Part shown: in pieces, positions 21,165 through 42,363 of the stretch
How the letters are laid out: each line of letters starts with the position of its first letter
Position numbering within the stretch: the stretch's first letter is position 1
Assembly (NCBI GenBank): GCA_022790685.1
Contig: JAAVXQ010000039.1
Location: 1-42,363, forward strand
From: Clostridia bacterium
GTDB taxonomy: Bacteria; Bacillota; Clostridia; TANB77; CAG-508
Direction of reading: 5' to 3'
Length of the DNA: 42,363 nt
Made by a program: the position numbers and the translations under genes
Notes under the pieces: model-generated
Seen by the model: the letters and a program-made list of their open reading frames with translations, nothing else
Told to the model about the DNA's origin: nothing
Databases searched by the model: none

Positions 21165-21172
21165 GAGGAAAT

Positions 21173-23829: not shown

Positions 23830-23864
23830 TAATTAAAGGCATAAAGTAAGCGGAAAGGATTTTT

Positions 23865-24539: not shown

Positions 24540-24551
24540 GCAGGAGGAAAT

Positions 24552-25572: not shown

Positions 25573-25573
25573 A

Positions 25574-26389: not shown

Positions 26390-26442
26390 TTTTAGAAAGG
26401 GAAAAGTATAATGGAGATTACATTATACTGTAAGGAAAGGGT

Positions 26443-26976
26443 ATGAAGAAACTTTTCATAATATTAGGACTAATATTAACGTTTTTTTTAATATATTTTT
26501 TACAAATTAACATATTTGCAAATCTTACAATAGCAGGAATTATGCCGAATTTATTTGTTATTTTTGTTTTGTTTGTGGGATTGTTTGCAAATTCTACACT
26601 AGGAATTATGACAGGAGTTTTTGTAGGCTTAATGTTAGACTTTATGTATGGAAAAGTTATAGGCATAAGTGCAGTAATGTACTGTATAGTAGGATATTTA
26701 GGAACATATTTTGATAAAAATTTCTCAAAAGAAAATAAACTTACAATTATATTAATGTGTGCAGGTGCAACATTAATATATGAAATAGGATATTATTTAT
26801 TAAGTTCTATAATAATAAATTTTGAGAGAGAATACATTTTATTTATAAAAAAGGTAGTAGTAGAAGTGATTTATAATATACTTCTTACAATTATACTATA
26901 TCCACTAATTCAAAAAGTAGGATTTAGTATGGATAGAATATTTAAAAGAAACAATGTGCTTACAAGATATTTTTAA
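26443..26976 (+). CDS. mreD: Rod shape-determining protein MreD
   Basis: Polytopic 177-aa membrane protein directly after mreC. Confidence 0.75.
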   Translation: MKKLFIILGLILTFFLIYFLQINIFANLTIAGIMPNLFVIFVLFVGLFANSTLGIMTGVFVGLMLDFMYGKVIGISAVMYCIVGYLGTYFDKNFSKENKLTIILMCAGATLIYEIGYYLLSSIIINFEREYILFIKKVVVEVIYNILLTIILYPLIQKVGFSMDRIFKRNNVLTRYF

Positions 26977-26997
26977 AAGAAAAGAGGGTGAAATATT

Positions 26998-29133: not shown

Positions 29134-29146
29134 AAAGGAAATTAAA

Positions 29147-29752
29147 ATGTTAAACAATATTAAAATTAGCCAAACTACAGAAGAAATAATATTAAATGTT
29201 AATGTTATAGCAGATATGCAAGACATATTAGCTGAATTAGAAACAAAAATACCAAAGCTTAGAGATTTTTATCAATCTTCTAAAATACCGATTAGAGTTA
29301 AAGGTAAATTATTTACAGAAACAGAAATGGAAATGATAAAAAAAGTAATTAATTCAGAAATCGATGTAGAAATAAAATTTGATGATGTGTCAGATTTACT
29401 AGGGCTACATGCAATAAAGAAAACTTTTGAAACAAATACTGAAATATCTGAAACTAAATTTATACAAAATTCTATAAGATCAGGACAAAAGGAAGAATAT
29501 ACGGGAAGTTTAGTAATATGTGGAGATGTAAATGCAGGTGCCGAAATAATAGCTGGTGGAAATATAATAATAGTAGGAACTTTAAGAGGGCTTGCACATG
29601 CAGGAGCAAATGGAAATAAAAAAGCTATAATCTCAGCAAACTCTATAGATATAACTCAAGTTAGAATAGCTAATCTTGTAAAGGAAGTTGGAGAAAAAAT
29701 AGATAAATGTCCGATATGTAAAATAGATGTAAATGAAATTGTAATATCATAA
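29147..29752 (+). CDS. minC: Septum site-determining protein MinC
   Basis: C-terminal beta-helix motif GDVNAGAEIIAGGNIIIVGTLRGLAHAG. Confidence 0.85.
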   Translation: MLNNIKISQTTEEIILNVNVIADMQDILAELETKIPKLRDFYQSSKIPIRVKGKLFTETEMEMIKKVINSEIDVEIKFDDVSDLLGLHAIKKTFETNTEISETKFIQNSIRSGQKEEYTGSLVICGDVNAGAEIIAGGNIIIVGTLRGLAHAGANGNKKAIISANSIDITQVRIANLVKEVGEKIDKCPICKIDVNEIVIS

Positions 29753-29760
29753 AAGAGATA

Positions 29761-29788
29761 AAAACCATTCAATTTGAATGGTTTTTTT
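29761..29788. terminator. Bidirectional hairpin terminator between minC and the convergent gene
   Basis: AAAACCATTCAA/TTGAATGGTTTT palindrome with T runs on both strands. Confidence 0.7.
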
Positions 29789-29811
29789 ATACTTATGTAT
29801 ATTTAAGTATG

Positions 29812-30198
29812 CTATAAGATAAGTAGAACAAGAATGATTATTAGTATAAAGTCATAATCAGAGTTTTTAAAACTTTGAAAATTATTCATAGATTCTAGAG
29901 CAGTTAAAAGATTAGCAATCTTTACGTACTGCTCTAATTTTTCCTTTTTTGTATTCTCAAGATAAGGTTTTAAAGAATATAGAAGCTTATTTCTAGGAGA
30001 ATCTTTACTTTTGTTCATAGCAGTAAAGATATCTTTCATTTTTAATATAGTATCCATATCAAAAGAAAAATCGGAATTATTACTTTCTTCCGCATTTTCA
30101 CTATTATCAGAATTATTCATTATATTATTTAAATCTATATTTTTTTCTTTTAAAATATCTGAAAATTTATTTAAAACCTCTGAGAAATCTTCATTCAT
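29812..30198 (-). CDS. Hypothetical protein
   Basis: 128-aa product with an acidic Asn/Ser-rich N-terminal half and a hydrophobic C-terminus (FILIIILVLLIL). SD TGAGG. No family recognised. Confidence 0.5.
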   Translation of the reverse strand: MNEDFSEVLNKFSDILKEKNIDLNNIMNNSDNSENAEESNNSDFSFDMDTILKMKDIFTAMNKSKDSPRNKLLYSLKPYLENTKKEKLEQYVKIANLLTALESMNNFQSFKNSDYDFILIIILVLLIL

Positions 30199-30209
30199 TC
30201 TTTAAAACC

Positions 30210-30348
30210 TCATTTATTATTTTCTAAATTTTTTTTAATATCAGAATTCTCCAATATTTGTTGTGCTTTGTAGATGTTTTTTTCTAATTCTTCTTTATCC
30301 ATTTTAGAAATAACAGACAAAAGTTTATTAATATCCATGTTATTCAAT
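30210..30348 (-). pseudogene. Possible small ORF (~45 aa) broken by a +1 frameshift in a C run
   Basis: GGAGG SD 9 nt before TTG 30348. The frame reads (M)NNMDINKLLSVISKMG then stops. After dropping one C of 30299-30301 it continues DKEELEKNIYKAQQILENSDIKKNLENNK to TGA 30212-30210. Confidence 0.3.
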
Positions 30349-30497
30349 AGAAAATACCTCCTTTAGAAATACTTTGTATTATTAGTATATGAAAGGTAAA
30401 GAAAAAAGTTGACAATATAAAATATATTAAAAAAAACAATACAAAAGTCACAGATATTTAAATATATGCAATAAAAATAAAAATAGCACTCAGAAAG

Positions 30498-30526
30498 TTT
30501 ACATAAAAACAAAAAAGTGATATAAT
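30498..30526 (+). promoter_or_regulatory. Putative strong sigma-70-type promoter for the giant surface-protein genes
   Basis: TTTACA 30498-30503, 17-nt spacer ending in TGA (an extended -10 TG), TATAAT 30521-30526. Confidence 0.55.
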
Positions 30527-30789
30527 AATATTATGGATAAGTGCGCCTATTTTCCACAAACGGTATAAAAAAAGTGGATAACTACACATAAACAAAAATG
30601 TAATGAAAACTTAATAAAATAAAAAAGGACATCGAAAGGTAGAATTTCCGTAAAAAAGTTTAATTAAAAACTCTGTAACAATTGAAAATAGAGGAACTTT
30701 ACCTATGTACAAAGAAAAATAATTGTCGTATATTATTATATATAATATAAAAATAGGTCGTATTATGTCTAAAACTAAAGAAAAGGAGT

Positions 30790-33700
30790 ATGGAGAAAAT
30801 GGAAACAAAGTTAAGAAAAGTCTTAATATTAATAATTATTTTCATGATGATGTTTTCAAATTTTGGATTTACCATAAAAGCAATAGCTACATCAGATGAA
30901 TTCCAAGTAATTTCAAATGGATTTTTCAGAAAAGACGAAGTAAAATTTTCTGGATATTTTGAAAACGAAGATGGAAAGCAAACAAATGAAGTAATTAATA
31001 ATGCAAAACAAAGAGCAATTCTAAAATTTAATATTAAGCCTCAAGTAGAAGGGTATTTGAAAAACGCAAATATAAAGGCAGTAGCCACAGATGGCACTGA
31101 CTTAAATTTTAGATTTGTGTCTGCTAAAAACATGCTTGATGAAATAAATCAAGAAGAAGAGAAAGAAGATACACAGTTTGAAGTGAAAAATGAAAATAAA
31201 GATTTATCAGAAATTTCTGCTATGAACGAAATAGAAAATACAAGTTTAGAAAATTCTGTAAATGAAAATCAAGCATCAAATGTAATAAATGAGATTTCAA
31301 ATGATGCAAATGAAATATCAAACAGTGTATCAAAGGAATTAAATTCTAATACGGTGGAAAACAGTATTGCAAATGAGATAAGCAACAATACTGTTTCTAA
31401 TGATGTGCCTTTAGAAGAGGAAGAAGAATTTATAGATGAAGAGGAATATATAAAACAAGAACAAGAGACAGAAACAGAAGTAGAAAAAGAAAAACTAGTT
31501 TCTGATGTTAAACTTGTTAATGATAATGAAATTAGTCTTGTAAATATTCTAGAAGATACAACTTTAGAAGTAGTAATAGAATTTAATCAAAAAGACGAAA
31601 TAAATATAGCAGACTTATACAAAGAGATAAGCTTTAGATTAACAGGTACATATATAAATGTAAAGTTAGAAGAAGTTGATATAGCAAAAGAACAACTAAT
31701 GAACATTGGTTGGAAATATAGTAAAGATATCGAAGTTACAAGTGAATATACAAAATTTTCTCCATTTAAAATAGGTGAAGTAACAGGTATAATTGCTGAA
31801 AATAAAATAGTACTTGCAAGAAATATAGAAGATAGTAAATATTTACCTATAAAAAATACAAATATAGAAATAATGGTTCCTACAGTTAATGGAAAAATGC
31901 CAATGAGTGTAGATGTACAAGCCACAAAGTTGATGGCAACAAAAGGACAAGATAGTGGATATGTAGAATTTACAAATAACAATTGGACATATGATCAAAA
32001 TGAAGGAAAGATTATTATAAATGTAAATAATGACATAGATGGAAAAGCAAAAAATTCTTTAGGTGAAGACGAATACGTTATTATATATAGATTTGATGAA
32101 TATACAGAAAATGAAACTGTTAGATTAGATAGAAATGTAAAAGTAACAGTAGAAGAATATAGTGCAAAAGAAAATAGCATATTAGAAAAAACAATTGATG
32201 ATAATGTAGAAATACAAACTAATAAAGGTGAATTAATAACATATAGTATTAGCTCATCAGAAGAAAAAATAAATAAAGCTAAAATATATGCAAATTATAA
32301 CTCACCTGATGCACCATATGAAACAGAATATACAAGTAATATAAGATTAAATGTACTTACAAGTGACATGCTAGAGGAACTAAAAATAGATAGTTCAAAA
32401 GAATATTTTATAGATAAGAATGGAACAGAGCTTGAGGCTTCAGGAATTAAATACAAGAAAATGACATTTAACTATAATGATATAAAATCAACATTAGAAA
32501 AAGGTGGAGCAGTAGAAATATATTCATTAGAGGGAGCACTTATATATACACTAACAAAAGATTTAGTAAAATCACAAGATGATTGTACAATAAATATGAA
32601 TAATGAACCAGGAGTTATTATACAAGTAAGAGATGTATCAGCTAATGGAAAAATAGATGTAGAAATAACAAAAGCAATAGGAAGACCAGAAATAGACAAA
32701 TCAATATTTGCAAACTTTAGAAGAATAGAAAGCAGAATTACAGCAGAAGTAAAATATGCAAATATAGAAGAAAGATTAACACTTCCACTAATAGGAACAT
32801 CAAAAGAATTTGAAGAAAGTTATACAAAAGCTACATTAAGTATAAACAAACCAAATTTAACAACAATGCAAGAAAATGAGAATGTAGAGCTTAAAATAGA
32901 ACTTAACAATGATAGTCAAAAAAGTGACTTATATGTTAATCCAACATTTGAACTTGTTTATCCAAAACATATAAAAGAAGTTGAACTTGAAAGTATAAAT
33001 GTAATATATGATAGTGGTTTAACAGTAAAACATTTTGAAACATATAGAGATGGTGAAAACTTAAAAACAAGAATAGAGCTAGATGGAATTCAAACAAGCT
33101 TTATAGAAAACTCAATGACAAATGGTACAAATATAATTTTAAATACAAGAATGAAAATAGATGAATATACACCAAGAAAAGAAGATCAAATTAAACTTTA
33201 TTACTATAATGAAGGTGTAAGTAATTATCAAACACAAACAATGTGGAAAGTAAATAAAACTATTCCAAATAATATTTTAAAACAAACAAATGGATTTGAT
33301 GTAGCATTAATTAATTATCAAGCACCAGTTGGATTAATTGCTATAAATGGAATGAGAAATTATGATGGTGAAGGTTCAGAATTAAGATCTGTAAAACAAG
33401 GAACAATGACAAGACAAATCCAAAGAGAAAGAGCAGAAGTAAATACAACAATGGATTTATTAGTTCTTAACAATACAGGAAATGAATGCTCAGACATAAC
33501 AATGCTTGGAAGAGTACCTTTTAAAGGAAATAAAGATGTAATAACAGGAGAGAACTTAGGAACTAATATAGATGTAAGATTAGTAGGTTCTATTCAAGAA
33601 GACAGTGAAAATTCAGCTAAAGCAACAATATACTATTCAGCAAAAGCTGATGCAAATAAGAATTTAAATGATTCATCAAATGGATGGACAACAGATGTTC

Positions 33701-36585
33701 AAGATATGAGCAAAGTAAAATCTTATTTAATAGTAGTTGATGGAAAAGTTGAACCAGGAGCTTTCTTAAAATATACTTATGGATTTGTAATTCCAGAAAA
33801 TCTACCATATGAAGGAAAAATTGTAGGAAGCTTTGGAGCATATTATAACAATATAACAGATGTGGCTGTAGTGTATGAGAGTATGAATGCTGACAAAACT
33901 GTATTAGAAACAGAAAAAGGAGCTAAATTAGAAGCAAGATTAAATGTTGATATAGGTGATGGAGCAGATATACTAGAAGAAAGAAGAATGATGTATACAG
34001 TTACAGTAATAAATTCAGGAAGTGTTCCTATATCAGATATAACAATAACAAATCCAGTACCTAGATATACATACTATACAGAAAAAGGACCTGTAAGATA
34101 TGGTGATTATGGCTTTGAAGTTAAGGATGAAAAAGAAATAAAAGAAACAGGTATTACATTAGAGCCAGGAGCAACAAAAGAAATGACATATTACTTAACA
34201 GCTCAAAAAATACCAAATTTATCATCATATTGTGCAAGTATGGGAAATTCTGGTGAAGATGAAAATGGTGTGTATTATGAAAAAGTAGTTGGAACAGAAA
34301 TAGAAAAAATACCAAATACATATGTTGATGAAAATGGAGTTGAACATACAGAATATCAAGAAGTAATAAAAGATAAAATTGAAAAAGTGTATGTTTCAGA
34401 AGTGCCAGATGTGTATATAGAAAATAAAGCAACAATAGAAACACCACTTATAGCAGATAAAATAGAGACAAATACTGTAAGAAATAGAATGAAAAAAGCT
34501 AACTTTAGTTCAAGTTTAGCAATAGATTATGATAGACTTCTAGTTAAAGGTAGTGTAACAAATTATCAATTAACATTAAGAAATATATCAGGTAGAGATT
34601 TAGAAAATGCACAGGCTATATTTAATATAGGAGAAGGATTAGTTTTTGTAAAGGGAGAAGTACAAGGCACTGATATTACAGCAGATTACAATCAAGAAAC
34701 ACATAAAATATCATATGATATTGGTAAACTAGATAAAGATAGTTCTGTAACTATTAGTACAGAAGTACAAACAATTTCAGTAGATGAAGGAAGAAAGCAA
34801 ATAAATTGCTATTTTGAATTAAAAGCAGATGATGTTGCTACTGAATATAGTACAGTAATACCTCAATATATTGTAAAACCAAAATTATCTGTAGAAGACA
34901 TGACAGCAATTAAAAATACATATGGAGAAGAAGAGGTATTTACAGTAACTACAAAGATTACAAATGTTGGAGCAGATAGTTGTAAAAATGCAACTATTGA
35001 ATGTGAAATACCAAATGCAGTAACAATAAGAAGTGTAAAAGTTTCAGGAGATTCTAATGGAACTTTAGATGCCAATATTTCAACAGGAAAATTAGAATCA
35101 AAATTACCACTAATACCACCAGATAGAAGTATTATAGTGGATATAAACTTTAAAACACAAAACTTAGCAGGTTCAGATCCATCAAAAGTTATATTAACAA
35201 GAATTATAAAAAATGAAAATCAAACAGATATAAAAATAAATCCAGTAGAATTAACTGTAGAGAACAACTTAAAAACTATGGAAGAAAAAGAAAAAGAAAG
35301 AGAAGAAGAAAGAAAGCAAGAAGAAGAAAAAAATAAAGAAGATAAAAAAGATCAAACAGATAATACACAAAATAATAACCAAAATACAAATAATTCAAAT
35401 AATAATAACTCAAACAATAACTCAAATAATAATAACTCAAACAATAACTCAAATAATAATAGTACAAATAACAATTCAAATAATAATAATAATAACACAA
35501 ATAATAACAACTCAAATAATAATACACCTACAGTTCAAGAAGAAAAAACATATATGATAAAAGGTGTAGCATGGCTTGATAAAAATGCAGATGGAGTAAA
35601 AGACGAAAATGAAGAGAAACTAAAAAATATAAAAGTATATTTATTAGATGCTAAAACAAATGCAATGATAAAATCTGCAATGACAAATTCAAATGGAGAA
35701 TATCAATTCAGTGACTTAAAAAATGGAAGATATATTGTTGGCTTTGAATTTGATATGGATAAATATAAAATAACGAGCTATAAGAAATCAGGAGTTTCTG
35801 AAGAATTAAATTCGGATGTAACTGAAGCAGCAAATGCTAGAGGAACAAAAGAATCAATAAAAGCTGTAACAAATGAAATTACTATAAATAATGCAGATGT
35901 ATCAAATGTAAATATAGGATTAAAAGATGCAAAACAGTTTGATATAGAAATAAATAAATATTTATCAAAAGCAACAGTAATAAACAAAAAAGAGACAAAA
36001 GAATACAAATATGACAAAGCAGATATAGCTAAATTAGAAATACATTCAAAACAAATAAATAATTCAACAGTAAAATTAGAGTATGATATTGTTGTTAAAA
36101 ACATTGGAAATCTTGAAGGAACAGTACAAAAAATAGTAGATAGTTTTAGCTCAGATGTTGAATTTGACGAAAAAGATAATAAAGACTGGTATAAAGGAAA
36201 TGACGGAAAGATTTATAGTAAAAACCAAGATGGATTAACTTTAAAGCCGGGTGAAGAGAAAATACTAAAACTTGTAGTTACAAAGAAATTAGATGGAAAC
36301 AGCACAGGTTCATTAAGTAATAAAGCAATTTTAGAGCAAACAAATAGTAGTTCGGGTGAAGAAGAAGAGACAAAAAATAATACAAGCACACAAATTACAA
36401 TTATAACAGTTTCTACAGGTGGAAGAACAATAACAACAATTTTAATAGCAATTTTTGGAATAGCAGTTATAGGATTTATGTATATAAGTCCAAAAGTAAA
36501 TATAAACCTAGGTGATATAGGTAAGAAAAGTTATAAAGCTAAAAAAGAAACACTAAAGAAAAAATTAAAGAAAATTTATAAATAA
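30790..36585 (+). CDS. Giant (1931-aa) secreted, C-terminally anchored surface protein with DUF11/CARDB-like repeats, an Asn-rich spacer and an SdrD-B-like domain
   Basis: Features in order:
- signal peptide (KVLILIIIFMMMFSNFGFTIKAIA);
- acidic low-complexity region;
- DUF11-like segments (MMYTVTVINSGSVPISDITITNPVP; VTNYQLTLRNISGRDL; EVFTVTTKITNVGADS);
- NNNSNNNS spacer;
- SdrD-B-like GVAWLDKNADGVKDENEEKLKNIKVYLLD...NGEYQFSDLKNGRY;
- C-terminal TVSTGG, then TM (ITTILIAIFGIAVIGFMYI), then a Lys-rich tail.
The likely true start is ATG 30799, which has better SD spacing. Confidence 0.85.
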   Translation: MEKMETKLRKVLILIIIFMMMFSNFGFTIKAIATSDEFQVISNGFFRKDEVKFSGYFENEDGKQTNEVINNAKQRAILKFNIKPQVEGYLKNANIKAVATDGTDLNFRFVSAKNMLDEINQEEEKEDTQFEVKNENKDLSEISAMNEIENTSLENSVNENQASNVINEISNDANEISNSVSKELNSNTVENSIANEISNNTVSNDVPLEEEEEFIDEEEYIKQEQETETEVEKEKLVSDVKLVNDNEISLVNILEDTTLEVVIEFNQKDEINIADLYKEISFRLTGTYINVKLEEVDIAKEQLMNIGWKYSKDIEVTSEYTKFSPFKIGEVTGIIAENKIVLARNIEDSKYLPIKNTNIEIMVPTVNGKMPMSVDVQATKLMATKGQDSGYVEFTNNNWTYDQNEGKIIINVNNDIDGKAKNSLGEDEYVIIYRFDEYTENETVRLDRNVKVTVEEYSAKENSILEKTIDDNVEIQTNKGELITYSISSSEEKINKAKIYANYNSPDAPYETEYTSNIRLNVLTSDMLEELKIDSSKEYFIDKNGTELEASGIKYKKMTFNYNDIKSTLEKGGAVEIYSLEGALIYTLTKDLVKSQDDCTINMNNEPGVIIQVRDVSANGKIDVEITKAIGRPEIDKSIFANFRRIESRITAEVKYANIEERLTLPLIGTSKEFEESYTKATLSINKPNLTTMQENENVELKIELNNDSQKSDLYVNPTFELVYPKHIKEVELESINVIYDSGLTVKHFETYRDGENLKTRIELDGIQTSFIENSMTNGTNIILNTRMKIDEYTPRKEDQIKLYYYNEGVSNYQTQTMWKVNKTIPNNILKQTNGFDVALINYQAPVGLIAINGMRNYDGEGSELRSVKQGTMTRQIQRERAEVNTTMDLLVLNNTGNECSDITMLGRVPFKGNKDVITGENLGTNIDVRLVGSIQEDSENSAKATIYYSAKADANKNLNDSSNGWTTDVQDMSKVKSYLIVVDGKVEPGAFLKYTYGFVIPENLPYEGKIVGSFGAYYNNITDVAVVYESMNADKTVLETEKGAKLEARLNVDIGDGADILEERRMMYTVTVINSGSVPISDITITNPVPRYTYYTEKGPVRYGDYGFEVKDEKEIKETGITLEPGATKEMTYYLTAQKIPNLSSYCASMGNSGEDENGVYYEKVVGTEIEKIPNTYVDENGVEHTEYQEVIKDKIEKVYVSEVPDVYIENKATIETPLIADKIETNTVRNRMKKANFSSSLAIDYDRLLVKGSVTNYQLTLRNISGRDLENAQAIFNIGEGLVFVKGEVQGTDITADYNQETHKISYDIGKLDKDSSVTISTEVQTISVDEGRKQINCYFELKADDVATEYSTVIPQYIVKPKLSVEDMTAIKNTYGEEEVFTVTTKITNVGADSCKNATIECEIPNAVTIRSVKVSGDSNGTLDANISTGKLESKLPLIPPDRSIIVDINFKTQNLAGSDPSKVILTRIIKNENQTDIKINPVELTVENNLKTMEEKEKEREEERKQEEEKNKEDKKDQTDNTQNNNQNTNNSNNNNSNNNSNNNNSNNNSNNNSTNNNSNNNNNNTNNNNSNNNTPTVQEEKTYMIKGVAWLDKNADGVKDENEEKLKNIKVYLLDAKTNAMIKSAMTNSNGEYQFSDLKNGRYIVGFEFDMDKYKITSYKKSGVSEELNSDVTEAANARGTKESIKAVTNEITINNADVSNVNIGLKDAKQFDIEINKYLSKATVINKKETKEYKYDKADIAKLEIHSKQINNSTVKLEYDIVVKNIGNLEGTVQKIVDSFSSDVEFDEKDNKDWYKGNDGKIYSKNQDGLTLKPGEEKILKLVVTKKLDGNSTGSLSNKAILEQTNSSSGEEEETKNNTSTQITIITVSTGGRTITTILIAIFGIAVIGFMYISPKVNINLGDIGKKSYKAKKETLKKKLKKIYK
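35401..35454 (+). repeat. Perfect tandem duplication of a 27-nt unit within the Asn/Ser-rich low-complexity spacer (about 35380-35525)
   Basis: AATAATAACTCAAACAATAACTCAAAT at 35401-35427 is repeated exactly at 35428-35454, in frame. Confidence 0.9.
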
Positions 36586-36597
36586 GGGGGTGAGAAT

Positions 36598-39500
36598 ATG
36601 AAACAAAAATTAATGAAAAAGATATTAATATTAACAATGACATTAATAAGTGTTGTAGGAATAGGATATACAATTAAAACATTAGCAACTGTACAGATAG
36701 GAGTATTTAATGCTGGATATAATGAAGCAGTTGTTGGAGAGCCTATTAAAATGACAATAACTCAAGAATATTCTCACTTAAGAGAACCAGATAAAAATAT
36801 AGTACCTAATCCAATAAGAAGTTTTCCAGTAAATAAAAATGTGTTTAATACAAGTCAAGATTACTTCTGTATACAACATGGTGTACCTTATGCAATAGCG
36901 GCAAATGGACAACAATCTAAAGGAACAGCTGGACAATATCTTTCTGATTCTGGAATTCAATATATTTCAGGAGAGGGATTAAGAAATGGTAAATTAGATA
37001 ATTATAATAATCCAGATGGAATTGGTTATGGAAACTATCATACAGGAGCATTTGATATAAGTTCTGATATAAAAATAAATGAAGATCCTTCTTTGTCATA
37101 TGATAGTAGAACAGCGAATACAACAGCACTTACTAATAAAGGTTTTCAAGGATATAGAGAAGATGAACCAGCAGAAACTCCTGTTGATACAGTATATTCA
37201 AATTATGTATATAAAACTAAAAAGTTTGAATTTGGATGTATTGAAAAATCAGGAGATCATTGTGAAAGAAAAGTAGAAGTACCAGAAACATTTAATTCAA
37301 CTCAAGGTGATGAAGGATTTGATGAAGGATTAGCATTTTTATTAGCCAGATATAAAATAACTCCAAGAGGCTCATATTCAAACGATCCTTTACAACATGC
37401 TGTATGGGCTACATTAGGACAATATAGTGGTGGAGAAGCTTATATTAAAGATTATGTACTAAAAGAAGCGAGAGAAAGCTTTGATAAATATCATAAAGAA
37501 GCAACAGAAAAGATGGTAGATGTAATACCAAGTGATGATGTTGGCACAGTATTATCAAATGGTAATTATGTAGTTGGACCATTTAAAATGAATGATTATA
37601 TTAGAGCAGAAGATTATAATTATACAGTAGGTGGTTCAATACATTCAAGTTATTTACCAGGAGACGAAGGAGAAGATGATGAAACAATAGATATTGATAT
37701 GCCAAAAACTCAGGAAAACTTACAAAAAATATTTTATAGGACTGATTCTAATAATCCAACAAGTATTACAGAAAAGAAAGAATTATATGGTGGTATATTA
37801 AGAGCTTGGGTTGTATTTAATGATGGAAGTATATATGAATTTGCAAAATGGGAAGATAAAAATGTTCCTGCACCAGGTAAAGAATTTAAAATAGAAATAC
37901 CAACATCAGCAGTTAATGATGGAGCAGATGAAATTATAGATATAGTATTTGAATATCAAATAATTCATGCATATGGTGAAGGTGAAACATATATAGGTAG
38001 ACAAATAAGAGTTAGTTGGAATAAAAAGCAAGATACAAGTGGAGGATGCACAGAATATAAAACAAACTATCCTGGAGAAACAGGTTTATGTTCTTATCAT
38101 GGGGTTAATGCAGGACCATTTACAAGTACTACAGGAGGATGGCAAGATACTACTCATAACCATATTCATGATTGCGATGATTTCTATCATGGACATGGAT
38201 GTGCAGGGGGACACTATAGTTCTTCTTGCCATGCTTGTAATTGTACAGGACATGGAACAGGTCCTGATAAAACATATTGCTCTTGTTCTGGTCATAAAAA
38301 GGCAGGATGCCATTGTTCGTGTCCAGGACATACATGTTCACATACTAAAAATATGTTATTCTTATGCGATCATAAACATGTTAAATGTCAAATGTTTGAT
38401 TGGCAAGCAAATAATATTTCATATGATGCATGTCAAGATGGTGCAACATTACAAGGAAAGCTTTCAAATGAAATTGTAGAATATTCAATAAAAGTAAATG
38501 TGCCATTAAAAACAGATATGTCTATATATAAATATATTAGTAAAGTAGAACATAATGATATAGCAGAGCATAAAACTTGTAACCATACATATAATGGTGG
38601 AACAGAAAGAAGAGATTGGGAAATTGCAGTAAAAGAAGCAGACCCAGTAAAAGTTGAAAGAGGAGATATTGTAACATATACAATTGAACTTGTAAATAAT
38701 TCAAAATTTCCAACCGAAGTTCTGGTGCAAGATACTCTGCCAGATGATATATTAGATGAAGATAGAAGTGACATTAGAATAAGATGGCATTATGAAACAG
38801 TTGCAAATGACTGGATTACAATACAACCATATAGTACAGAAACTTTTGAAGTAACAGTAGTTGTAGACTCAATGTCAGGAAAGTATGTAAACTCAGTTGA
38901 ATTTGTATCAACAAATGATAAAGAACCACATATGAGATATGAACATTGGGGAGATGGGGCAACACATGGACCACACGAACATGGTTGGATAGTAAACATC
39001 AACAATAAAATACAAGATGAAGATTGGTATGAAGTAAAAGAATATAAAGTAAATATTGACAAATATATTTCTGATGTAGAACATACAGAAGTAAAATCTT
39101 CATATGATTCTACAATGCCAGAAAGTGATGCTAGATCAAAATTCAATATGAGTGAAAGTGATAAACAAAAAGCACCAGTATATGTTGAATATGGTGATAT
39201 AGTTACATATACAATAAAAATATATAATACAACAAATAAGTATGATAGCTCATTTGATAGAACAAAAGCCCCACACTGGGAACCAGAAGTTGTATATGTA
39301 GATATTGAAGACACTTTACCAGTAAACTGTATATTACAATCAATAGATGTAGATGATACATATACACAAAGAGAAGCAACAAATGAACATGTATACTTAG
39401 ATGATGTTAGAGTTGAAGAAGATGCAGTTACAACAATAACAATAAAAGTAATGGTAAATGATGTAAAAAGAACAACAGTAAGAGAAAATAATGTAATAAT

Positions 39501-42363
39501 ACTAAATGATAAAATTGAAAATATAAACAGAGAAATAATCCTAAATCATACAGATAAAGACGATACAAGTGATTGGTATAAATTAAATGATTATGACATA
39601 GATATTGACAAATATATAAGTGCATATAATGGTTCTATGATGAAAGAAAACAATAGAATAGGATTCACAGAAAATGAAACATCAACAATAGATGATAAAG
39701 GATTTACAAATACTGGAGCAACAAATCAAGCAGATAGAGAAGATTTAGACAGAGTTGATTTGACAGATGCATACAAAAAAGATTATCCAGTAGAAGTTGA
39801 AAAAACAGAAGAAGTTATTTACTCTATAAAATTAGAAAATCATAAAACCAAATTAGGAAGTCAAGATGCAGTAGCAACAGGTTCACAACCAGGCACACAA
39901 GTTAGACCAACAAAGATAACTGATACTTTACAAACAGGTTTAGAGTTCCAAGAAGTAAAAGGCGTAAAATATGAAGCTGATGGAACTAAAGTAGCAGATG
40001 TACAAGTAACAGCAACACCAATAGGAAATAATACATATGAATTTACAATAGGAAATGGAAACGAAACAATATTAGATCCTGGACAATTTATGGTTTACTA
40101 TGTAAGAGTTAAAATAACAGAAAGCAATATGTATTTATTAACACTAGAAAATTCAGCAGTTATAACAACACTAACAAATATAAATCATAATCCAGATATA
40201 GAGGAAAGAATTGTAAAAGACCCAGATAATCCAAATATTGATGAGAATATCTCTCCTCAAAAAGAATCAAAAGAATATGTAAAACTAAAAGAGTTAATAA
40301 TGGCAGGTAAAGTATTCTTAGATGCAGATAAAAATGGATATATGGAAACAGAAAATGATAAAAACAGATTTAATAATATAACAGTTAAATTGTATAGAAG
40401 AGATGGAGATGGAACAGCAAAACAAGTAGGAGAGAAAAAGACAGGAACTAATAAATTAGGAGAAAACGGTTTCTATACATTTGAAAGAGTTGACAAAGCA
40501 GATGATAAACAACATGCAACAAAAGTTAATGACTACTATGAAAAAGATGGCGTATATACAGCAAACAGTAAACTTTATGAATATTATATAGAATTTGAAT
40601 ATGATGGTGTAGCATATAAAGCAACAGAAGTATATGGAGGAAGAACAGAAGATGTTAATCCAAACTTTGGAGATAATAATATAACAGAAAAATGGCTTCC
40701 AACAGACCCTGATGCAGAAAAATATATCACAGATTCAAATGCATATGAATTTACAGATATAAGAGATGCATTTAATAGAAATTATGAGACAATAGGATAT
40801 AACAAGGCATATAAATCAGGAGAAGATACAAATAATAAGACTGAAACTGCAGCTCTAACATACACAAAGAAAGGCCATACATCACTATTAGATGTTGTTG
40901 AAGCTCCAAATGCACAAAATCATCCAGAAAGAGTAATGACATCAAGAACCTTTATAAAGAAAGAAGTTGTACCAGTAGATGGAGAACCATCAAGCTTTAA
41001 AGATAAAGGAATAGAACAAGACCTAGGATATCCTGGAAGTTTAGGCTATGGTAAAAATTTAGGAAATACAAAAACTTTATGGCTATATAAACAAGGAGCA
41101 GACTATAAATTACCAGAAACAGAATATTTAAAATATATGAACTTAGGTTTAGTTGAAAGAGAAGATGTTAATATATCACTTGTAAAAGATGTATACTCAG
41201 TAACAACAACAGTAAATGGTGAGCAGATAACATATGACTATAATAAAAACGGTGTAAAGAATAATGAAATATTAATAAAAGGAAATGCACCTGTAACATC
41301 AGAAGAAGCACAAGGAGCGACAGGAACAGAATTTAATGAATCAAATGGAAAATATATTGACAATCAAAAATATGGCTTAGAATTATATGAATCAGATTAT
41401 TACTATAGAGTTGAGCAATATGAGCATCAAGCAGTAAGAGATTATAAAACAATATACAGTGAACTTAATATTGAAGTAACATTTAGAATTACAATAACAA
41501 ATGAAGAAATTATACAAGATGAATTAAACATGAGAGATGTTGATAGAGAAGTTATTGTAACTATAGATGAAATTGCAGATTACTATGATGAAAACTTTGT
41601 TGAATATACAGATAACATTGAATCAGCATACAAAGCAAAACTTGGAACACCAAATGAAGATTCAGATTATAAATATATGACACAAGAAGAGGCTGATACT
41701 TTAGATGATTCTGTAGCAGTTAAAATAAAAGTAAAAGTACCGGATGAGGAAAATATTGCAAGAGATCCAGGTTCAACAAAATTAATAGACAGAAAGCTAG
41801 AAGTTGTAAAAGCATGGTACTATAAAGATGGAACAACAAATCCAACAGGATTAATTGTAACAAATAAATCAAACTATAATCCAGAACGTGTAAGTAAAAA
41901 TGGAGAGGCAGATGGATATAGAAAACTATATATTAGAGGCTTTAATAAAGTTCAACTACATGAAGGAGAAAGCATAGATTTATATGTAAAATATATAGTG
42001 GATAAAGAAGCAGCTGGAAATATTTTAAGTATGACATCAGGTGATTCAAGAAACTTAAAAATAGCAGAAAGATTAACAAAAGGTGAATTTGGTAGAGGAC
42101 AAGAAGGAATTGCAGAAATAAGTGCATACTCTACTTGGTATCAAGAATATGATACAACAAAGAGTCCAGCAACAAATAAAGGAAATGAACTAAAACCAGC
42201 AGGACTTGTTGACAGAAATTCAAATCCAGATAACTTAGGGGATGACAATTCAGGAGCAGAGGTATCTGTAGACGAAATAGGATTCTATGAAGATGATACA
42301 TATAAAACAGGTATAGAAATGACAGTTCCTAAACCAGAAAATCCACCAAATAAACCAAATCCA
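36598..42363 (+). CDS. Second giant secreted protein (at least 1922 aa, 3' end outside the window): thioester-domain adhesin-like head, Cys/His-rich module, three ~180-aa repeat modules and an SdrD-B-like domain
   Basis: Not in the ORF track. GGGGG SD lies 7 nt before ATG 36598. I read every codon to 42363 without a stop. Signal peptide MKQKLMKKILILTMTLISVVGIGYTIKTLA. The motifs are detailed in the findings. Confidence 0.85.
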   Translation, partial: MKQKLMKKILILTMTLISVVGIGYTIKTLATVQIGVFNAGYNEAVVGEPIKMTITQEYSHLREPDKNIVPNPIRSFPVNKNVFNTSQDYFCIQHGVPYAIAANGQQSKGTAGQYLSDSGIQYISGEGLRNGKLDNYNNPDGIGYGNYHTGAFDISSDIKINEDPSLSYDSRTANTTALTNKGFQGYREDEPAETPVDTVYSNYVYKTKKFEFGCIEKSGDHCERKVEVPETFNSTQGDEGFDEGLAFLLARYKITPRGSYSNDPLQHAVWATLGQYSGGEAYIKDYVLKEARESFDKYHKEATEKMVDVIPSDDVGTVLSNGNYVVGPFKMNDYIRAEDYNYTVGGSIHSSYLPGDEGEDDETIDIDMPKTQENLQKIFYRTDSNNPTSITEKKELYGGILRAWVVFNDGSIYEFAKWEDKNVPAPGKEFKIEIPTSAVNDGADEIIDIVFEYQIIHAYGEGETYIGRQIRVSWNKKQDTSGGCTEYKTNYPGETGLCSYHGVNAGPFTSTTGGWQDTTHNHIHDCDDFYHGHGCAGGHYSSSCHACNCTGHGTGPDKTYCSCSGHKKAGCHCSCPGHTCSHTKNMLFLCDHKHVKCQMFDWQANNISYDACQDGATLQGKLSNEIVEYSIKVNVPLKTDMSIYKYISKVEHNDIAEHKTCNHTYNGGTERRDWEIAVKEADPVKVERGDIVTYTIELVNNSKFPTEVLVQDTLPDDILDEDRSDIRIRWHYETVANDWITIQPYSTETFEVTVVVDSMSGKYVNSVEFVSTNDKEPHMRYEHWGDGATHGPHEHGWIVNINNKIQDEDWYEVKEYKVNIDKYISDVEHTEVKSSYDSTMPESDARSKFNMSESDKQKAPVYVEYGDIVTYTIKIYNTTNKYDSSFDRTKAPHWEPEVVYVDIEDTLPVNCILQSIDVDDTYTQREATNEHVYLDDVRVEEDAVTTITIKVMVNDVKRTTVRENNVIILNDKIENINREIILNHTDKDDTSDWYKLNDYDIDIDKYISAYNGSMMKENNRIGFTENETSTIDDKGFTNTGATNQADREDLDRVDLTDAYKKDYPVEVEKTEEVIYSIKLENHKTKLGSQDAVATGSQPGTQVRPTKITDTLQTGLEFQEVKGVKYEADGTKVADVQVTATPIGNNTYEFTIGNGNETILDPGQFMVYYVRVKITESNMYLLTLENSAVITTLTNINHNPDIEERIVKDPDNPNIDENISPQKESKEYVKLKELIMAGKVFLDADKNGYMETENDKNRFNNITVKLYRRDGDGTAKQVGEKKTGTNKLGENGFYTFERVDKADDKQHATKVNDYYEKDGVYTANSKLYEYYIEFEYDGVAYKATEVYGGRTEDVNPNFGDNNITEKWLPTDPDAEKYITDSNAYEFTDIRDAFNRNYETIGYNKAYKSGEDTNNKTETAALTYTKKGHTSLLDVVEAPNAQNHPERVMTSRTFIKKEVVPVDGEPSSFKDKGIEQDLGYPGSLGYGKNLGNTKTLWLYKQGADYKLPETEYLKYMNLGLVEREDVNISLVKDVYSVTTTVNGEQITYDYNKNGVKNNEILIKGNAPVTSEEAQGATGTEFNESNGKYIDNQKYGLELYESDYYYRVEQYEHQAVRDYKTIYSELNIEVTFRITITNEEIIQDELNMRDVDREVIVTIDEIADYYDENFVEYTDNIESAYKAKLGTPNEDSDYKYMTQEEADTLDDSVAVKIKVKVPDEENIARDPGSTKLIDRKLEVVKAWYYKDGTTNPTGLIVTNKSNYNPERVSKNGEADGYRKLYIRGFNKVQLHEGESIDLYVKYIVDKEAAGNILSMTSGDSRNLKIAERLTKGEFGRGQEGIAEISAYSTWYQEYDTTKSPATNKGNELKPAGLVDRNSNPDNLGDDNSGAEVSVDEIGFYEDDTYKTGIEMTVPKPENPPNKPNP
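36850..37410 (+). other. Putative Cys-Gln thioester domain (TED/TQXA-like) of the second giant protein
   Basis: DYFCIQHG (Cys91, TGT 36868-36870) and DPLQHAVWATLG (Gln266, CAA 37393-37395) fit the two conserved TED motifs with appropriate spacing. Confidence 0.6.
38047..38433 (+). other. Cys/His-rich module: 16 Cys and 15 His in 129 residues
   Basis: Counted codon by codon. It includes three C-x-C-x-G-H motifs (CNCTGH, CSCSGH, CSCPGH). Confidence 0.9.
40300..40755 (+). other. SdrD-B-like domain in the second giant protein
   Basis: AGKVFLDADKNGYMETENDKNRFNNITVKLYRRDGDG...GENGFYTFERV...YYIEFEYDGVAYKATEVY...TDSNAYEF. Confidence 0.6.

What the first reader, a model, noticed from the sequence alone, without database searches (positions are those of the whole stretch)
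30498..42363. Two back-to-back giant surface-protein genes form an operon-like locus where minD/minE would be expected
Seen in sequence:
- A single predicted promoter (30498-30526) precedes gene 1 (30790-36585, 1931 aa).
- Gene 2 starts only 12 nt after gene 1's TAA, with its own SD and signal peptide, and no terminator hairpin lies between them.
- Together they occupy at least 11.6 kb, more than a quarter of the window.
- Both share an SdrD-B-like domain and a module that begins D-I-x-I-x-K-Y-[IL]-S (35941 in gene 1; 38515, 39049 and 39595 in gene 2). Their N-terminal regions are unrelated.
- Gene 1 ends in a TM anchor with a Lys-rich tail. Gene 2's C-terminus is unseen.

Established knowledge: in many Clostridia the cluster reads mreB-mreC-mreD-PBP2-minC-minD-minE(-rodA). 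Here minC (29147-29752) is followed by a terminator, two small convergent ORFs and this locus.

Inference: the locus, possibly 29.8 kb onward, may be an insertion into the mre-min cluster. The two products may work as an anchored partner plus a covalent-binding partner.
Basis: partly seen in the sequence, partly recalled or inferred. Interest (0 to 1): 0.7.

Follow-up and report, generated by a model that had tools for sequence, protein, structure and literature searches.

The report
Paired giant surface-protein gene cluster
The two huge genes are the first half of a four-gene, 26.7-kb cluster of giant cell-surface, adhesin-like proteins that uncultured gut Clostridia have kept between minC and spoIIE across many species, so it is an old lineage trait and not a recent insertion.

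Summary
Gene 1 (30790 or 30799 to 36585) and gene 2 (36598 to the window end, 2777 aa in full) are real, secreted, 12 nt apart and have no terminator between them.

A second pair follows (G3 1741 aa, G4 2210 aa), then a strong terminator, then spoIIE. No minD, minE or rodA resumes downstream.

The order PBP2-minC-small ORF-G1-G2-G3-G4 recurs in about 25 species-level MAGs whose G2 proteins are only 30-40% identical. Base composition does not shift at the locus. A recent insertion is therefore not supported.

- **Type A (G1, G3):** SdrD-B and DUF11/CLIPPER stalk domains, then an invariant xxTG motif, a membrane helix and a basic tail.
- **Type B (G2, G4):** an N-terminal head with an invariant FCxxH cysteine and a QxxΦW motif (thioester-domain-like), a Cys/His-rich insert, DUF11-like modules and an LPXTG-like TPPTG sorting signal.

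Thioester chemistry stays unproven. HMM searches, AlphaFold plus Foldseek, and hhalign against real thioester domains all gave no significant match.

Strains of the window's species carry very divergent alleles from mid-G1 onward.

Verdict: an uncharacterised, clade-specific variant of Gram-positive fibrillar adhesins. Interest is moderate.

The parts
29147..29752 (+). minC, the conserved upstream flank of the cluster
   Evidence: Pfam MinC_C 96 bits. The identical protein was found in 640 blocks of the collection.
29760..29786 (.). Bidirectional intrinsic terminator after minC
   Evidence: 12-bp stem followed by a T run, found on both strands; 13-nt perfect inverted repeat.
29812..30198 (-). 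s128, a conserved small protein with a C-terminal hydrophobic segment. It travels with minC, not with the giant gene pairs.
   Evidence: Present next to minC in nearly all related loci. Absent from G1-G2 pairs that lie in other genomic contexts (L018, L020, L028). No Pfam hit.
30210..30347 (-). 45-aa small ORF, called as a gene in some strains
30498..30526 (+). Distal sigma-A-like promoter P1 (TTTACA-17-TGxTATAAT), about 265 nt before the start codon
   Evidence: Best hit in the region. A paralogous site lies the same distance before G3 (L086:4465-4493). A site matching the same strict pattern lies 271-308 nt upstream of G3 in L009, L014, L019, L022, L030 and L037, and 294 nt upstream of G1 in L014.
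30596..30654 (+). Leader blocks shared by the G1 and G3 leaders (AAATGTAATnAAAAnTTnATA and an invariant TTCCGTAAA). Possible operator sites; function unknown.
   Evidence: Alignments A3 and A6. No Rfam family matched.
30706..30734 (+). Proximal promoter-like site P2 (TGTACA-17-TATATT). Its counterpart before G3 is TTGACT-16-TAAAAT.
30755..30769 (+). Conserved near-palindromic element AGGTCGTATTATGTC, about 35-45 nt before the start codon of G1 and G3
30790..36585 (+). G1, type A giant surface protein (1931 aa; more likely starts at 30799, giving 1928 aa)
   Evidence: The family has at least 188 members of about 1850-2000 aa, named only 'DUF11 domain-containing protein'.
30790..30888 (+). G1 signal peptide (cleavage predicted near AIA/TS)
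   Evidence: Read from the translation.
34026..34026 (.). Recombination breakpoint between strains. Other strains are 98.6% identical to the left of it and about 63% identical or unalignable to the right.
   Evidence: blastn of the window against L005 and L007.
35352..35522 (+). Asn/Ser-rich linker of G1, encoded by a tandem repeat (period 27 and 12). Strains differ in G1 length (1921-1931 aa), but whether the indels fall in this repeat was not checked.
   Evidence: TRF. G1 lengths of 1921-1931 aa among strains that are over 99% identical.
35563..35841 (+). G1 SdrD B-like domain (aa 1592-1684)
   Evidence: Pfam PF17210 61.2 bits. PDB SdrD 6e-22 and UafA 8e-14.
35938..36354 (+). G1 DUF11/CLIPPER-like module with candidate isopeptide residues K1723, D1784 and N1844
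   Evidence: DUF11 20 bits in G1 and up to 77.8 bits in homologues. K1723, N1771, D1784 and N1844 are invariant in 30 homologues. Domain definition from PMC12617251.
36409..36582 (+). G1 C-terminal signal: VSTGG, membrane helix, Lys-rich tail
   Evidence: T1876 and G1877 are invariant in the family. Tails compared. No LPXTG_anchor HMM hit.
36586..36594 (+). Shine-Dalgarno sequence of G2 (GGGGGTGAG) inside the 12-nt spacer
36598..42363 (+). G2, type B giant surface protein. The window is cut at aa 1922; the full length is 2777 aa (P0001).
   Evidence: 1921 of 1922 residues are identical to P0001.
36715..37497 (+). G2 head region with thioester-domain-like motifs: FCIQHG (Cys91, nt 36868-36870) and PLQHAVW (Gln266 and Trp270, nt 37387-37407)
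   Evidence: C91, H94, P264, Q266, A268 and W270 are invariant in the nine-sequence alignment A2; C91, Q266 and W270 remain invariant in the wider A4. Motif definitions from PMC4450167 and PMC6194298. The fold was not verified.
37465..38022 (+). G2 beta-sandwich (aa about 290-475), ending in the strand FEYQ454IIH, the candidate thioester Gln
   Evidence: AlphaFold pLDDT 85-94 for this part. The Gln is replaced by Arg or Lys in about half of the family.
38134..38403 (+). G2 Cys/His-rich insert (aa 513-602), possibly metal-binding and hypervariable in the family
   Evidence: Some homologues carry CxxCxGxG or CxKxEHTH arrays at this position.
38518..40272 (+). Three DUF11/CLIPPER-like modules of G2, starting at aa 641, 818 and 1000
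   Evidence: Module 1: DUF11 30.6 bits and TIGR01451 34.6 bits. Modules 2 and 3 were assigned only by their shared sequence pattern.
40303..40632 (+). G2 SdrD-B-like motif region (GKVFLDADKNG ... YYIEFEYDG)
   Evidence: Motif only; no Pfam hit in the window protein. PF17210 is precomputed for the orthologue P0003.

Best explanation
The finding is the first half of a conserved chromosomal cluster of four genes (about 26.7 kb, 8659 codons). The genes form two tandem pairs, G1-G2 and G3-G4, and encode giant secreted cell-surface proteins of the fibrillar-adhesin kind.

**Shown**
- Each pair has one type A and one type B gene, 1-14 nt apart.
- Each pair is preceded by a sigma-A-like promoter and a leader of about 265-280 nt. 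The two leaders are paralogous.
- No terminator lies between G2 and G3. A strong one follows G4.
- All four proteins have Sec signal peptides.
- Type A carries SdrD-B and DUF11/CLIPPER stalk domains, then xxTG, a membrane helix and a basic tail.
- Type B carries DUF11-like modules and a TPPTG (LPXTG-like) motif, a helix and a basic tail. In distant relatives this tail passes the LPXTG-anchor model.
- The cluster lies between minC and spoIIE in a whole clade of uncultured gut Clostridia.
- Strains of one species differ by allele replacement from mid-G1 through at least the first 3.4 kb of G2, where the fetched sequence ends.

**Inferred**
- A and B are made together and displayed on the cell envelope. 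Cross-linked Ig-like domains act as stalks. The large unannotated N-terminal parts act as ligand-binding heads that attach the bacterium to host mucus, food particles or other cells.
- The allele diversity reflects diversifying selection on an exposed surface.

**Possible only**
- The type B head uses its invariant Cys (FCxxH) in thioester-like covalent binding.
- The Cys/His-rich insert binds metal.

The absence of minD and minE next to minC is an old trait of the lineage and was not caused by these genes arriving recently.
For: - **Gene structure, spacing and signal peptides:**
- **Second pair and downstream genes:** G3 1741 aa and G4 2210 aa, then SpoIIE, a WG-repeat protein, AcpS and TatD.
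- **Paralogy:** G1 and G3 match at the N-terminal 110 aa (32%) and the C-terminal 320 aa (37%). G2 and G4 match over about 1200 aa at 24-31%.
- **Synteny:** conserved in about 25 species-level MAGs. More distant relatives have 3-5 smaller genes in the same slot.
- **Domains:** SdrD_B, DUF11, DUF7507, DUF7619 and DUF5979. DUF11/CLIPPER, DUF7507 and DUF7619 are isopeptide stalk domains of fibrillar adhesins (PMC12617251).
- **Invariant candidate isopeptide residues in G1:** K1723, D1784 and N1844.
- **C-terminal signals:** compared. The LPXTG_anchor HMM scores 17.9 and 17.2 bits (cut-off 15.9) for distant type B tails and 10.6 bits for the window species' G4.
- **Transcription signals:** promoters and terminators; paralogous leaders.
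- **Strain mosaicism:**
- **Composition:** uniform across the locus.
Against: - No experiment shows surface location or binding.
- About 1300 aa of G1 and about 1500 aa of G2 have no detectable relative of known function.
- Adhesins are usually accessory and variable in position. Here the cluster is fixed between morphogenesis and sporulation genes in every species, which would also fit a structural envelope role.
- G1, G2 and G3 tails do not pass the LPXTG model.
- No sortase gene lies in 1.9 Mb of fetched loci.
- In four species G2 ends right after PPTGL with no membrane helix.
- Thioester-domain homology could not be shown. The candidate thioester Gln is Arg or Lys in about half of the family.
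Confidence: 0.6

Rival explanations
1. Recent insertion. A horizontally acquired island landed in the mre-min cluster and displaced or separated minD, minE and rodA.
For: - minC is followed by a terminator and then by genes unrelated to cell division.
- By established knowledge, many Clostridia have minCDE-rodA at this position.
- G1-G2 pairs also occur in other genomic contexts in some MAGs (L018, L020, L023, L028, L036). The pair can therefore move or duplicate.
Against: - The same order recurs in about 25 species with only 30-40% G2 identity.
- The minC and spoIIE flanks are conserved even in distant relatives.
- There is no GC or skew shift.
- No integrase, transposase or tRNA lies at the borders.
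- minD and minE do not resume downstream.
Confidence: 0.07
2. A structural envelope or cell-cell component rather than an adhesin. The four proteins would build a surface layer, sheath, inter-cell connector or spore appendage that this lineage needs. That would explain why the cluster is universal and fixed beside the mre/min/spoIIE genes.
For: - The cluster is present in every member of the clade, at one chromosomal position.
- It represents a very large coding investment (26.7 kb).
- The host is a spore former (SpoIIR, GerM-like protein and CotF in the window).
- mreB is frameshifted and minDE is not adjacent, which hints at unusual morphogenesis.
Against: - No SLH, CWB2 or other S-layer anchoring domains were found.
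- The domain set is that of fibrillar adhesins.
- The promoters look sigma-A-like.
- Alleles within one species are as low as about 63% identical. That is typical of exposed, ligand- or immune-selected proteins, although S-layer proteins also vary.
Confidence: 0.2
3. A sortase-assembled covalent fibre (pilus-like). The type B TPPTG threonine would be joined by a sortase to a lysine of type A, or of another B, to build a heteropolymer anchored through type A.
For: - The genes are adjacent, and both types carry xxTG, a helix and a basic tail.
- Distant type B tails pass the LPXTG model.
- Thioester-domain tip adhesins exist in streptococcal pili (PMC4450167).
Against: - No sortase gene lies in or near the cluster in any locus.
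- No pilin-type YPKN motif was recognised.
- The subunits are 10-20 times larger than pilins.
- Four species have a G2 without the membrane helix that a sortase substrate needs.
Confidence: 0.06
4. A polymorphic toxin or contact-dependent competition system. Giant exoproteins would have variable parts that are exchanged between strains.
For: There is a sharp recombination breakpoint and divergent alleles. The proteins are giant and secreted.
Against: - No toxin, immunity, two-partner secretion or type VII secretion genes are present.
- The variable part is not a short C-terminal tip. It covers the last third of G1 and at least the first 3.4 kb of G2, the part that was fetched.
- The C-termini are conserved anchors.
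Confidence: 0.03

Closest known systems
TIE proteins: thioester-isopeptide-ester domain adhesins of Gram-positive bacteria (BaTIE 6FWV, CpTIE, SfbI, pLS20 TIE)
   Same: Type B has a signal peptide. Its N-terminal head has an invariant Cys in a [YFL]C-hydrophobic-hydrophilic motif (FCIQ, followed by His as in the plasmid thioester domains 'aFC[VIL][DEQ]H'). It also has a QxxΦW motif in a predicted helix, a beta-sandwich before a YQxxH strand as in class II thioester domains, isopeptide-type stalk modules and an LPXTG-like anchor.
   Different: - It is 3-5 times longer.
- No Pfam or NCBIfam thioester-domain hit was found in 30 family members.
- There is no PDB sequence or fold match.
- hhalign finds only the 11-column Cys motif (E 0.056).
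- The candidate thioester Gln is not conserved.
- Extra features are the Cys/His-rich insert, about 1500 aa of unknown conserved sequence, and an obligatory type A neighbour.
DUF11/CLIPPER fibrillar adhesins (PMC12617251)
   Same: DUF11, DUF7507 and DUF7619 modules with a Lys on the first strand (IxKY[IL]S), an Asp (DTLP) and an Asn on the last strand. The proteins are long and surface-exposed.
   Different: Each protein has only one to three such modules, not long tandem arrays. Most of the length is unannotated.
Sdr-family MSCRAMMs (SdrD and UafA B domains)
   Same: G1 and G3 have a genuine B domain next to the anchor.
   Different: There is no A-domain (dock-lock-latch) match, no Ser-Asp repeat and no canonical LPXTG. 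The linker is an Asn/Ser repeat.
Sortase-dependent pilus gene clusters
   Same: Neighbouring genes encode surface proteins with C-terminal sorting-type signals, and there may be a reactive tip domain.
   Different: There is no sortase gene in the cluster, no pilin motif, and the subunits are giant.
mreBCD-PBP2-minCDE-rodA division and shape cluster of Clostridia (established knowledge)
   Same: radC-mreB-mreC-mreD-PBP2-minC are in the usual order.
   Different: minD, minE and rodA are not adjacent in this species or in about 25 relatives. mreB carries a 1-nt frameshift.

Membership tests
Thioester domain (TED) / TIE adhesins | [YFL]C-hydrophobic-hydrophilic motif holding the thioester Cys | tested here: met
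   G2 has FCIQ (Cys91), invariant in A1, A2 and A4. G4 has FCCY. Real class II thioester domains from plasmids read aFC[VIL][DEQ]H. Definition taken.
Thioester domain (TED) / TIE adhesins | Central helical TQxxΦW motif | tested here: met
   G2 has PLQHAVW. Q266 and W270 are invariant and lie in a predicted helix in both models. The Thr is replaced by Leu, Ser or Ala.
Thioester domain (TED) / TIE adhesins | Conserved thioester-forming Gln (ΦQζΦΦ) on a beta-strand | tested here: inconclusive
   The candidate is YQ454IIH, after the beta-sandwich. It is Gln in the window protein but Arg or Lys in about half of the family, while the Cys stays invariant.
Thioester domain (TED) / TIE adhesins | Match to thioester-domain profile models (Pfam TED, TIGR TQXA_dom) | tested here: not met
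   No thioester-domain family appeared up to E = 10 when alignment members were scanned one by one: the 9 of A2 against Pfam and the 21 of A4 against NCBIfam. None appeared either among 10 more distant relatives scanned against Pfam at E up to 0.01. hhalign against a 10-sequence alignment of real thioester domains gave a probability of 1%.
Thioester domain (TED) / TIE adhesins | Thioester-domain fold (beta-barrel plus three-helix bundle, with or without the class II sandwich) | tested here: inconclusive
   Two AlphaFold runs gave mean pLDDT 39 and 59, with the Cys region below 35. Foldseek against PDB gave no hit with E below 0.1. BaTIE 6FWV ranked second with E 0.22 and probability 0.07.
Thioester domain (TED) / TIE adhesins | The Cys-Gln thioester bond itself (-17 Da, methylamine-reactive) | not testable with these tools
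   Needs mass spectrometry of recombinant protein.
DUF11 / CLIPPER isopeptide domain | Profile match above the curated cut-off | tested here: met
   G2 module 1 scores 30.6 bits against PF01345 (cut-off 24.6) and 34.6 bits against TIGR01451 (cut-off 24). G3 scores 48.2 bits. The G1 module scores only 20 bits, but its orthologues reach 77.8 bits.
DUF11 / CLIPPER isopeptide domain | Lys, Asp and Asn residues positioned to form the isopeptide bond | tested here: inconclusive
   K1723, D1784 and N1844 are invariant in 30 G1 homologues, and all four modules share the pattern. Their geometry was not modelled.
SdrD B-like domain | Profile match above the cut-off | tested here: met
   G1 61.2 bits and G3 44.7 bits (cut-off 29.7); PDB SdrD 6e-22. 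For G2 it is not met: nothing at aa 1225-1420 and 16.2 bits at aa about 2024-2056.
LPXTG sortase substrates | Tripartite signal (motif, hydrophobic helix, basic tail) that passes TIGR01167 | tested here: inconclusive
   All four proteins show the tripartite layout by eye. TIGR01167 gives no hit for G1, G2 or G3, and 10.6 bits for G4 (cut-off 15.9). Distant type B relatives pass with 17.9 and 17.2 bits.
LPXTG sortase substrates | A sortase encoded in the genome | not testable with these tools
   There is none in the window or in 1.9 Mb of loci around the cluster. Whole genomes could not be scanned.
Sortase-assembled pilus locus | A pilus-specific sortase gene within the cluster | tested here: not met
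minCDE division-site cluster | minD and minE adjacent to minC | tested here: not met
   After minC come the terminator, s128, G1-G4 and spoIIE. tblastn with E. coli MinD and MinE found nothing in any locus. Whether minD and minE lie elsewhere in the genome could not be tested.

The most novel reading that the evidence does not exclude
The A/B pairs may be a new two-component class of Gram-positive surface fibre, restricted to a clade of uncultured gut Clostridia. In this reading, an anchored type A protein and a type B protein work as an obligate unit. Type B would carry a previously unrecognised reactive-cysteine head: a very divergent or independently evolved relative of thioester domains, with an adjoining extracellular Cys/His metal-binding knuckle. 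The unit would be essential enough to be fixed beside the cell-shape, division and sporulation genes in a lineage that has also lost the adjacent minDE genes and frameshifted mreB.
Probability: 0.2. Interest if true: 0.65.

Novelty: new variant of a known kind. Interest (0 to 1): 0.42.

Why it matters
These bacteria are widespread, uncultured gut commensals of mouse, human, chicken and ruminants. The exact MinC of this species occurs in 640 blocks of the assembly collection that was searched. Nothing is known about how they hold on in the gut.

A 26.7-kb cluster of four giant surface proteins, conserved across the clade yet with very divergent alleles between strains of the window's species, is a prime candidate for their colonisation and strain-specificity determinants.

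The type B head is found in only 63 representative clusters among 1.84 billion proteins and has no structural relative. If its invariant cysteine makes a thioester, it would extend covalent adhesion chemistry to a new fold family.

The finding also corrects a tempting misreading. The gap where minDE 'should' be is an old lineage trait, not an insertion scar.

Tried and rejected
- **Riboswitch in the 265-nt leader** (for example c-di-GMP, as upstream of C. difficile adhesins). Rfam gave nothing at gathering score or up to E = 1.
- **Invertible promoter.** Only AT-rich, low-complexity inverted repeats flank it.
- **Thioester-domain homology.** All of the following were negative or non-significant:
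  - Pfam and NCBIfam up to E = 10.
  - Pfam on distant relatives.
  - PDB profile searches.
  - Two AlphaFold runs, with 9 and 21 sequences, and Foldseek against PDB.
  - hhalign against pLS20 TIE alone, and against a 10-member thioester-domain alignment built from plasmids.
- **Homologues of known function for the N-terminal 1500 aa of G1.** The PDB profile search hit only the SdrD B domain.
- **Sortase, MinD or MinE near the cluster.** tblastn of all loci found none.
- **Horizontal transfer by composition.** No shift was seen.
- **s128 as part of the system.** Rejected, because G1-G2 pairs in other genomic contexts lack it.
- **Sporulation-sigma reading of the conserved CATACTATG element.** Considered by eye only and not pursued.

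Full report
**1. What is in the window**

The window comes from a low-GC (about 26%) spore-forming Clostridia bacterium. GC and skew are uniform across the window.

Pfam confirms this gene order:
- radC (23865-24539)
- mreB, split into two ORFs (24552-24734 and 24796-25572)
- mreC
- mreD
- a PBP2-type transpeptidase (27061-29133)
- minC (29147-29752)

minC is followed by a 12-bp-stem bidirectional terminator (29760-29786). Two small ORFs follow on the minus strand: a 128-aa protein at 29812-30198 and a 45-aa protein at 30210-30347.

Then come the two genes of the finding:
- Gene 1 (G1) is 30790-36585, 1931 aa.
- Gene 2 (G2) is an open frame from 36598 to the window end.
- The spacer is 12 nt and holds GGGGGTGAG.
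- Both proteins begin with Sec-type signal peptides.
- No terminator-like site lies between them.

There is one small correction. The SD AAGGAG sits 1 nt before ATG 30790, so ATG 30799 is the likelier start. Gene callers chose 30799 in sister strains.

**2.

An exact-match look-up of MinC found this organism in 640 blocks of the assembly collection, including mouse-gut MAGs with contigs up to 573 kb.

A homology search with G2 gave only 13 proteins in 5.8 billion, all 2700-2900 aa. One was the full-length form, P0001 (2777 aa; 1921 of 1922 residues identical to the window).

The contigs that encode it show what follows G2:
- A 670-nt gap with no terminator and a strong promoter-like site (TTGAAA-17-TG-TATAAT).
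- G3 (1741 aa).
- G4, 3 nt later (2210 aa, P0134).
- A 12-bp-stem terminator.
- SpoIIE, a WG-repeat protein, a 415-aa protein, AcpS, TatD and an LRR/dockerin protein.

minD, minE and rodA do not resume. From the G1 start to the G4 stop is about 26.7 kb.

G1 and G3 are paralogues (N-terminal 110 aa 32% identical, C-terminal 320 aa 37%). G2 and G4 are paralogues over about 1200 C-terminal residues (24-31%). The cluster is thus two copies of an A-B pair.

**3. It is ancestral in a clade, not a recent insertion**

I scanned one genome per species (GTDB) with the G2 alignment. This returned 74 loci, all from uncultured Clostridia MAGs of human, mouse, chicken, deer and other guts. Several are named Candidatus Scatovivens.

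I annotated their ORFs by BLASTP against the window's proteins.
- The order PBP2-MinC-s128(minus strand)-G1-G2-G3-G4 appears in about 25 species-level genomes, although their G2 proteins are only 30-40% identical to the window's.
- More distant relatives (L044-L047) have three to five smaller giant genes of the same two types in the same place.
- In L045 these are again followed by an 805-aa protein, 506-aa and 413-aa proteins and a holo-ACP-synthase-like protein. This matches the SpoIIE / 511 aa / 415 aa / AcpS order of the window species, but these L045 ORFs were identified by length, order and N-terminal sequence only and were not scanned.
- A few genomes carry a G1-G2 pair in another context, without s128. 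The pair is therefore the mobile or duplicable unit, and s128 belongs with minC.

tblastn with E. coli MinD, MinE and S. aureus SrtA found nothing in the window or in 1.9 Mb of loci.

An insertion at the base of the clade cannot be excluded, but there is no compositional or mobile-element evidence for it. Whether minD and minE exist elsewhere in these genomes could not be tested with the tools available.

**4. What the proteins are**

Type A (G1, G3):
- A signal peptide, then a conserved domain of about 80 aa, then an acidic or Asn-rich low-complexity stretch.
- About 1300 conserved residues with no detectable relative. The PDB profile search hit only the B domain.
- In G1, an Asn/Ser linker encoded by a tandem repeat (35352-35522).
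- A genuine SdrD B domain (61.2 bits; SdrD 6e-22).
- A DUF11/CLIPPER-type module.
- A tail made of xxTG, a membrane helix and basic residues.
- Homologues and G3 also hit DUF7507 and DUF7619.

A 2025 survey renamed DUF11 as CLIPPER. It showed by crystallography that the domain is a CnaA-like fold with a Lys-Asn isopeptide bond catalysed by an Asp, typical of fibrillar-adhesin stalks. The same survey lists DUF7507 and DUF7619 as related isopeptide domains (PMC12617251).

Type B (G2, G4):
- A signal peptide and an N-terminal head.
- A Cys/His-rich insert (G2 aa 513-602).
- In G2, three DUF11-like modules. Module 1 scores 30.6 bits against Pfam and 34.6 bits against TIGR01451. Modules 2 and 3 were assigned only by their shared pattern.
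- An SdrD-B-like motif that is not significant in the window protein.
- About 1500 conserved residues of unknown nature.
- A C-terminal ...ETITLTPPTGL... motif, followed by a helix and KKRRIK (G2) or KKKVLTK (G4).

The NCBIfam LPXTG-anchor model (cut-off 15.9 bits) is passed by distant type B relatives (17.9 and 17.2 bits). G4 scores 10.6 bits. G1, G2 and G3 do not hit. Type B therefore descends from sortase-type substrates. Whether a sortase still processes these tails is open:
- No sortase gene is nearby.
- In four species G2 ends just after PPTGL with no helix.

**5. Is the type B head a thioester domain?**

The published definition has three short motifs: [YFL]CΦζ (the thioester Cys), a helical TQxxΦW, and a weak ΦQζΦΦ (the thioester Gln). 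Class II domains have a beta-sandwich inserted before the Gln strand (PMC4450167, PMC6194298).

Evidence in favour:
- G2 has FCIQHG (Cys91) and PLQHAVW. Cys91, Gln266 and Trp270 are invariant even among the most distant relatives found.
- AlphaFold places a well-predicted beta-sandwich (pLDDT 85-94) at aa about 290-475. It ends in the strand FEYQ454IIH.
- Real class II thioester domains that I collected from pLS20 and nine other plasmids read aFC[VIL][DEQ]H at the Cys and YQRL at the Gln. Both resemble the G2 motifs.

Evidence against, or missing:
- No thioester-domain or TQXA model matches any family member up to E = 10.
- PDB profile searches are empty.
- The Cys region is modelled at pLDDT below 35 in both runs.
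- Foldseek finds nothing with E below 0.1. BaTIE 6FWV ranks second, at E 0.22 and probability 0.07.
- The best local match by hhalign against the real-domain alignment is exactly the two Cys motifs, but over 11 columns only (E 0.056, probability 1%). Global alignment fails.
- Gln454 is Arg or Lys in about half of the family, although the Cys never varies.

I therefore record thioester chemistry as a lead. It is neither shown nor excluded. The head module occurs in only 63 representative clusters among 1.84 billion proteins, nearly all of them giant proteins.

**6. Regulation and expression unit**

- G1 and G3 each have a distal sigma-A-like promoter about 265-280 nt upstream.
- A site matching the same strict promoter pattern lies 271-308 nt upstream of G3 in L009, L014, L019, L022, L030 and L037, and 294 nt upstream of G1 in L014.
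- The two leaders align, with shared blocks:
  - AAATGTAATnAAAAnTTnATA.
  - An invariant TTCCGTAAA.
  - A proximal promoter-like site.
  - A near-palindrome (GTCATACTATGTC or AGGTCGTATTATGTC) about 40 nt before the start codon.
- No Rfam family matches.
- No convincing invertible-promoter repeats exist.

Co-transcription of A with B follows from the spacers of 1-14 nt. It has not been measured.

**7. Variation**

Four strains (L003, L004, L006, L008) match the window over essentially the whole compared region, at 99.6-99.8% for three of them and about 98% for L008.

Two others (L005, L007) are 98.6% identical from 19147 to 34026. Beyond that they fall to about 63% identity or become unalignable, through the last third of G1 and through the first 3.4 kb of G2, which is as far as those loci extend. 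Their G1 is 1845 aa and their G2 is 2625-2632 aa.

This is allele replacement by recombination, with a breakpoint inside G1. It is what one expects of an exposed, selected surface structure.

**8. Judgement**

The best-supported reading is a clade-specific cluster of paired giant surface proteins of the fibrillar-adhesin kind (confidence about 0.6). A structural envelope role is the main rival (about 0.2).

The cluster is a new variant of a known kind. Its stalk and anchor parts are familiar. The following are not described elsewhere:
- the obligatory A-B pairing and its duplication;
- the sizes of the proteins;
- the head module;
- the Cys/His insert;
- the fixed chromosomal position.

Interest is moderate. 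The insertion story that gave the finding its title does not hold. The locus remains a good candidate for the colonisation determinants of a widespread uncultured gut lineage, and it offers a testable case of possibly new covalent-adhesion chemistry.

Noticed in passing
window 24552-25572 (junction near 24717): mreB is frameshifted by one extra C ('gaa atg cta C ggg aga aca'). The canonical sequence [16 protein letters not shown] continues in the +1 frame. The same 60-aa plus 258-aa split was called in all six strains fetched, while mreC, mreD and PBP2 are intact. It could be a pseudogene, or the cell may rely on another MreB paralogue. Other species were not checked.
   Followed up: partly
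window 34026 onward (compared with L005 and L007): There is a sharp drop from 98.6% to about 63% nucleotide identity between strains that share an identical MinC. This marks a recombination breakpoint inside G1 and divergent alleles of the G1 C-terminus plus G2.
   Followed up: partly
window 30533-30789; L086:4494-4771: The long 5' leaders of G1 and G3 are paralogous. They share conserved blocks (an invariant TTCCGTAAA, AAATGTAATnAAAA, a proximal promoter-like site and a near-palindrome GTCATACTATGTC). No Rfam match was found. These may be operator sites of an unknown regulator.
   Followed up: partly
window 38134-38403 (G2 aa 513-602) and homologues P0164, P0166, P0167, P0174, P0176: The extracellular Cys/His-rich insert is hypervariable in the family. 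In some homologues it expands into long arrays of CxxCxGxG (DnaJ-type zinc-finger-like) or CxKxEHTHxxxCC repeats inside a secreted surface protein.
   Followed up: no
window 9243-12206: A 987-aa fusion protein combines a UDP-sugar pyrophosphorylase (UDPGP) domain with a full phosphoglucomutase/phosphomannomutase.
   Followed up: no
window 29812-30198 (minus strand): A small 128-aa protein with a C-terminal hydrophobic segment and no Pfam hit sits next to minC, usually convergent with it (on the same strand in four loci), in nearly every genome of the clade. It is absent from G1-G2 pairs located elsewhere.
   Followed up: partly
L026, L028, L034, L041 (G2 orthologues): In four species G2 ends immediately after ...ISPPTGLxx, with no membrane helix or basic tail. 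The PPTG strand is thus kept even where the anchor is lost.
   Followed up: no
L086:22667-23432: The tatD gene downstream of the cluster is called as two ORFs (66 and 201 aa), which suggests another frameshift in this species.
   Followed up: no
window 18950-20845: A 631-aa Wzz plus P-loop (CbiA/ParA-type) protein next to a CpsB/CapC-like phosphatase is a BY-kinase-type capsule regulator. It is the only MinD/ParA-fold ATPase seen in the window, and it is not MinD.
   Followed up: no
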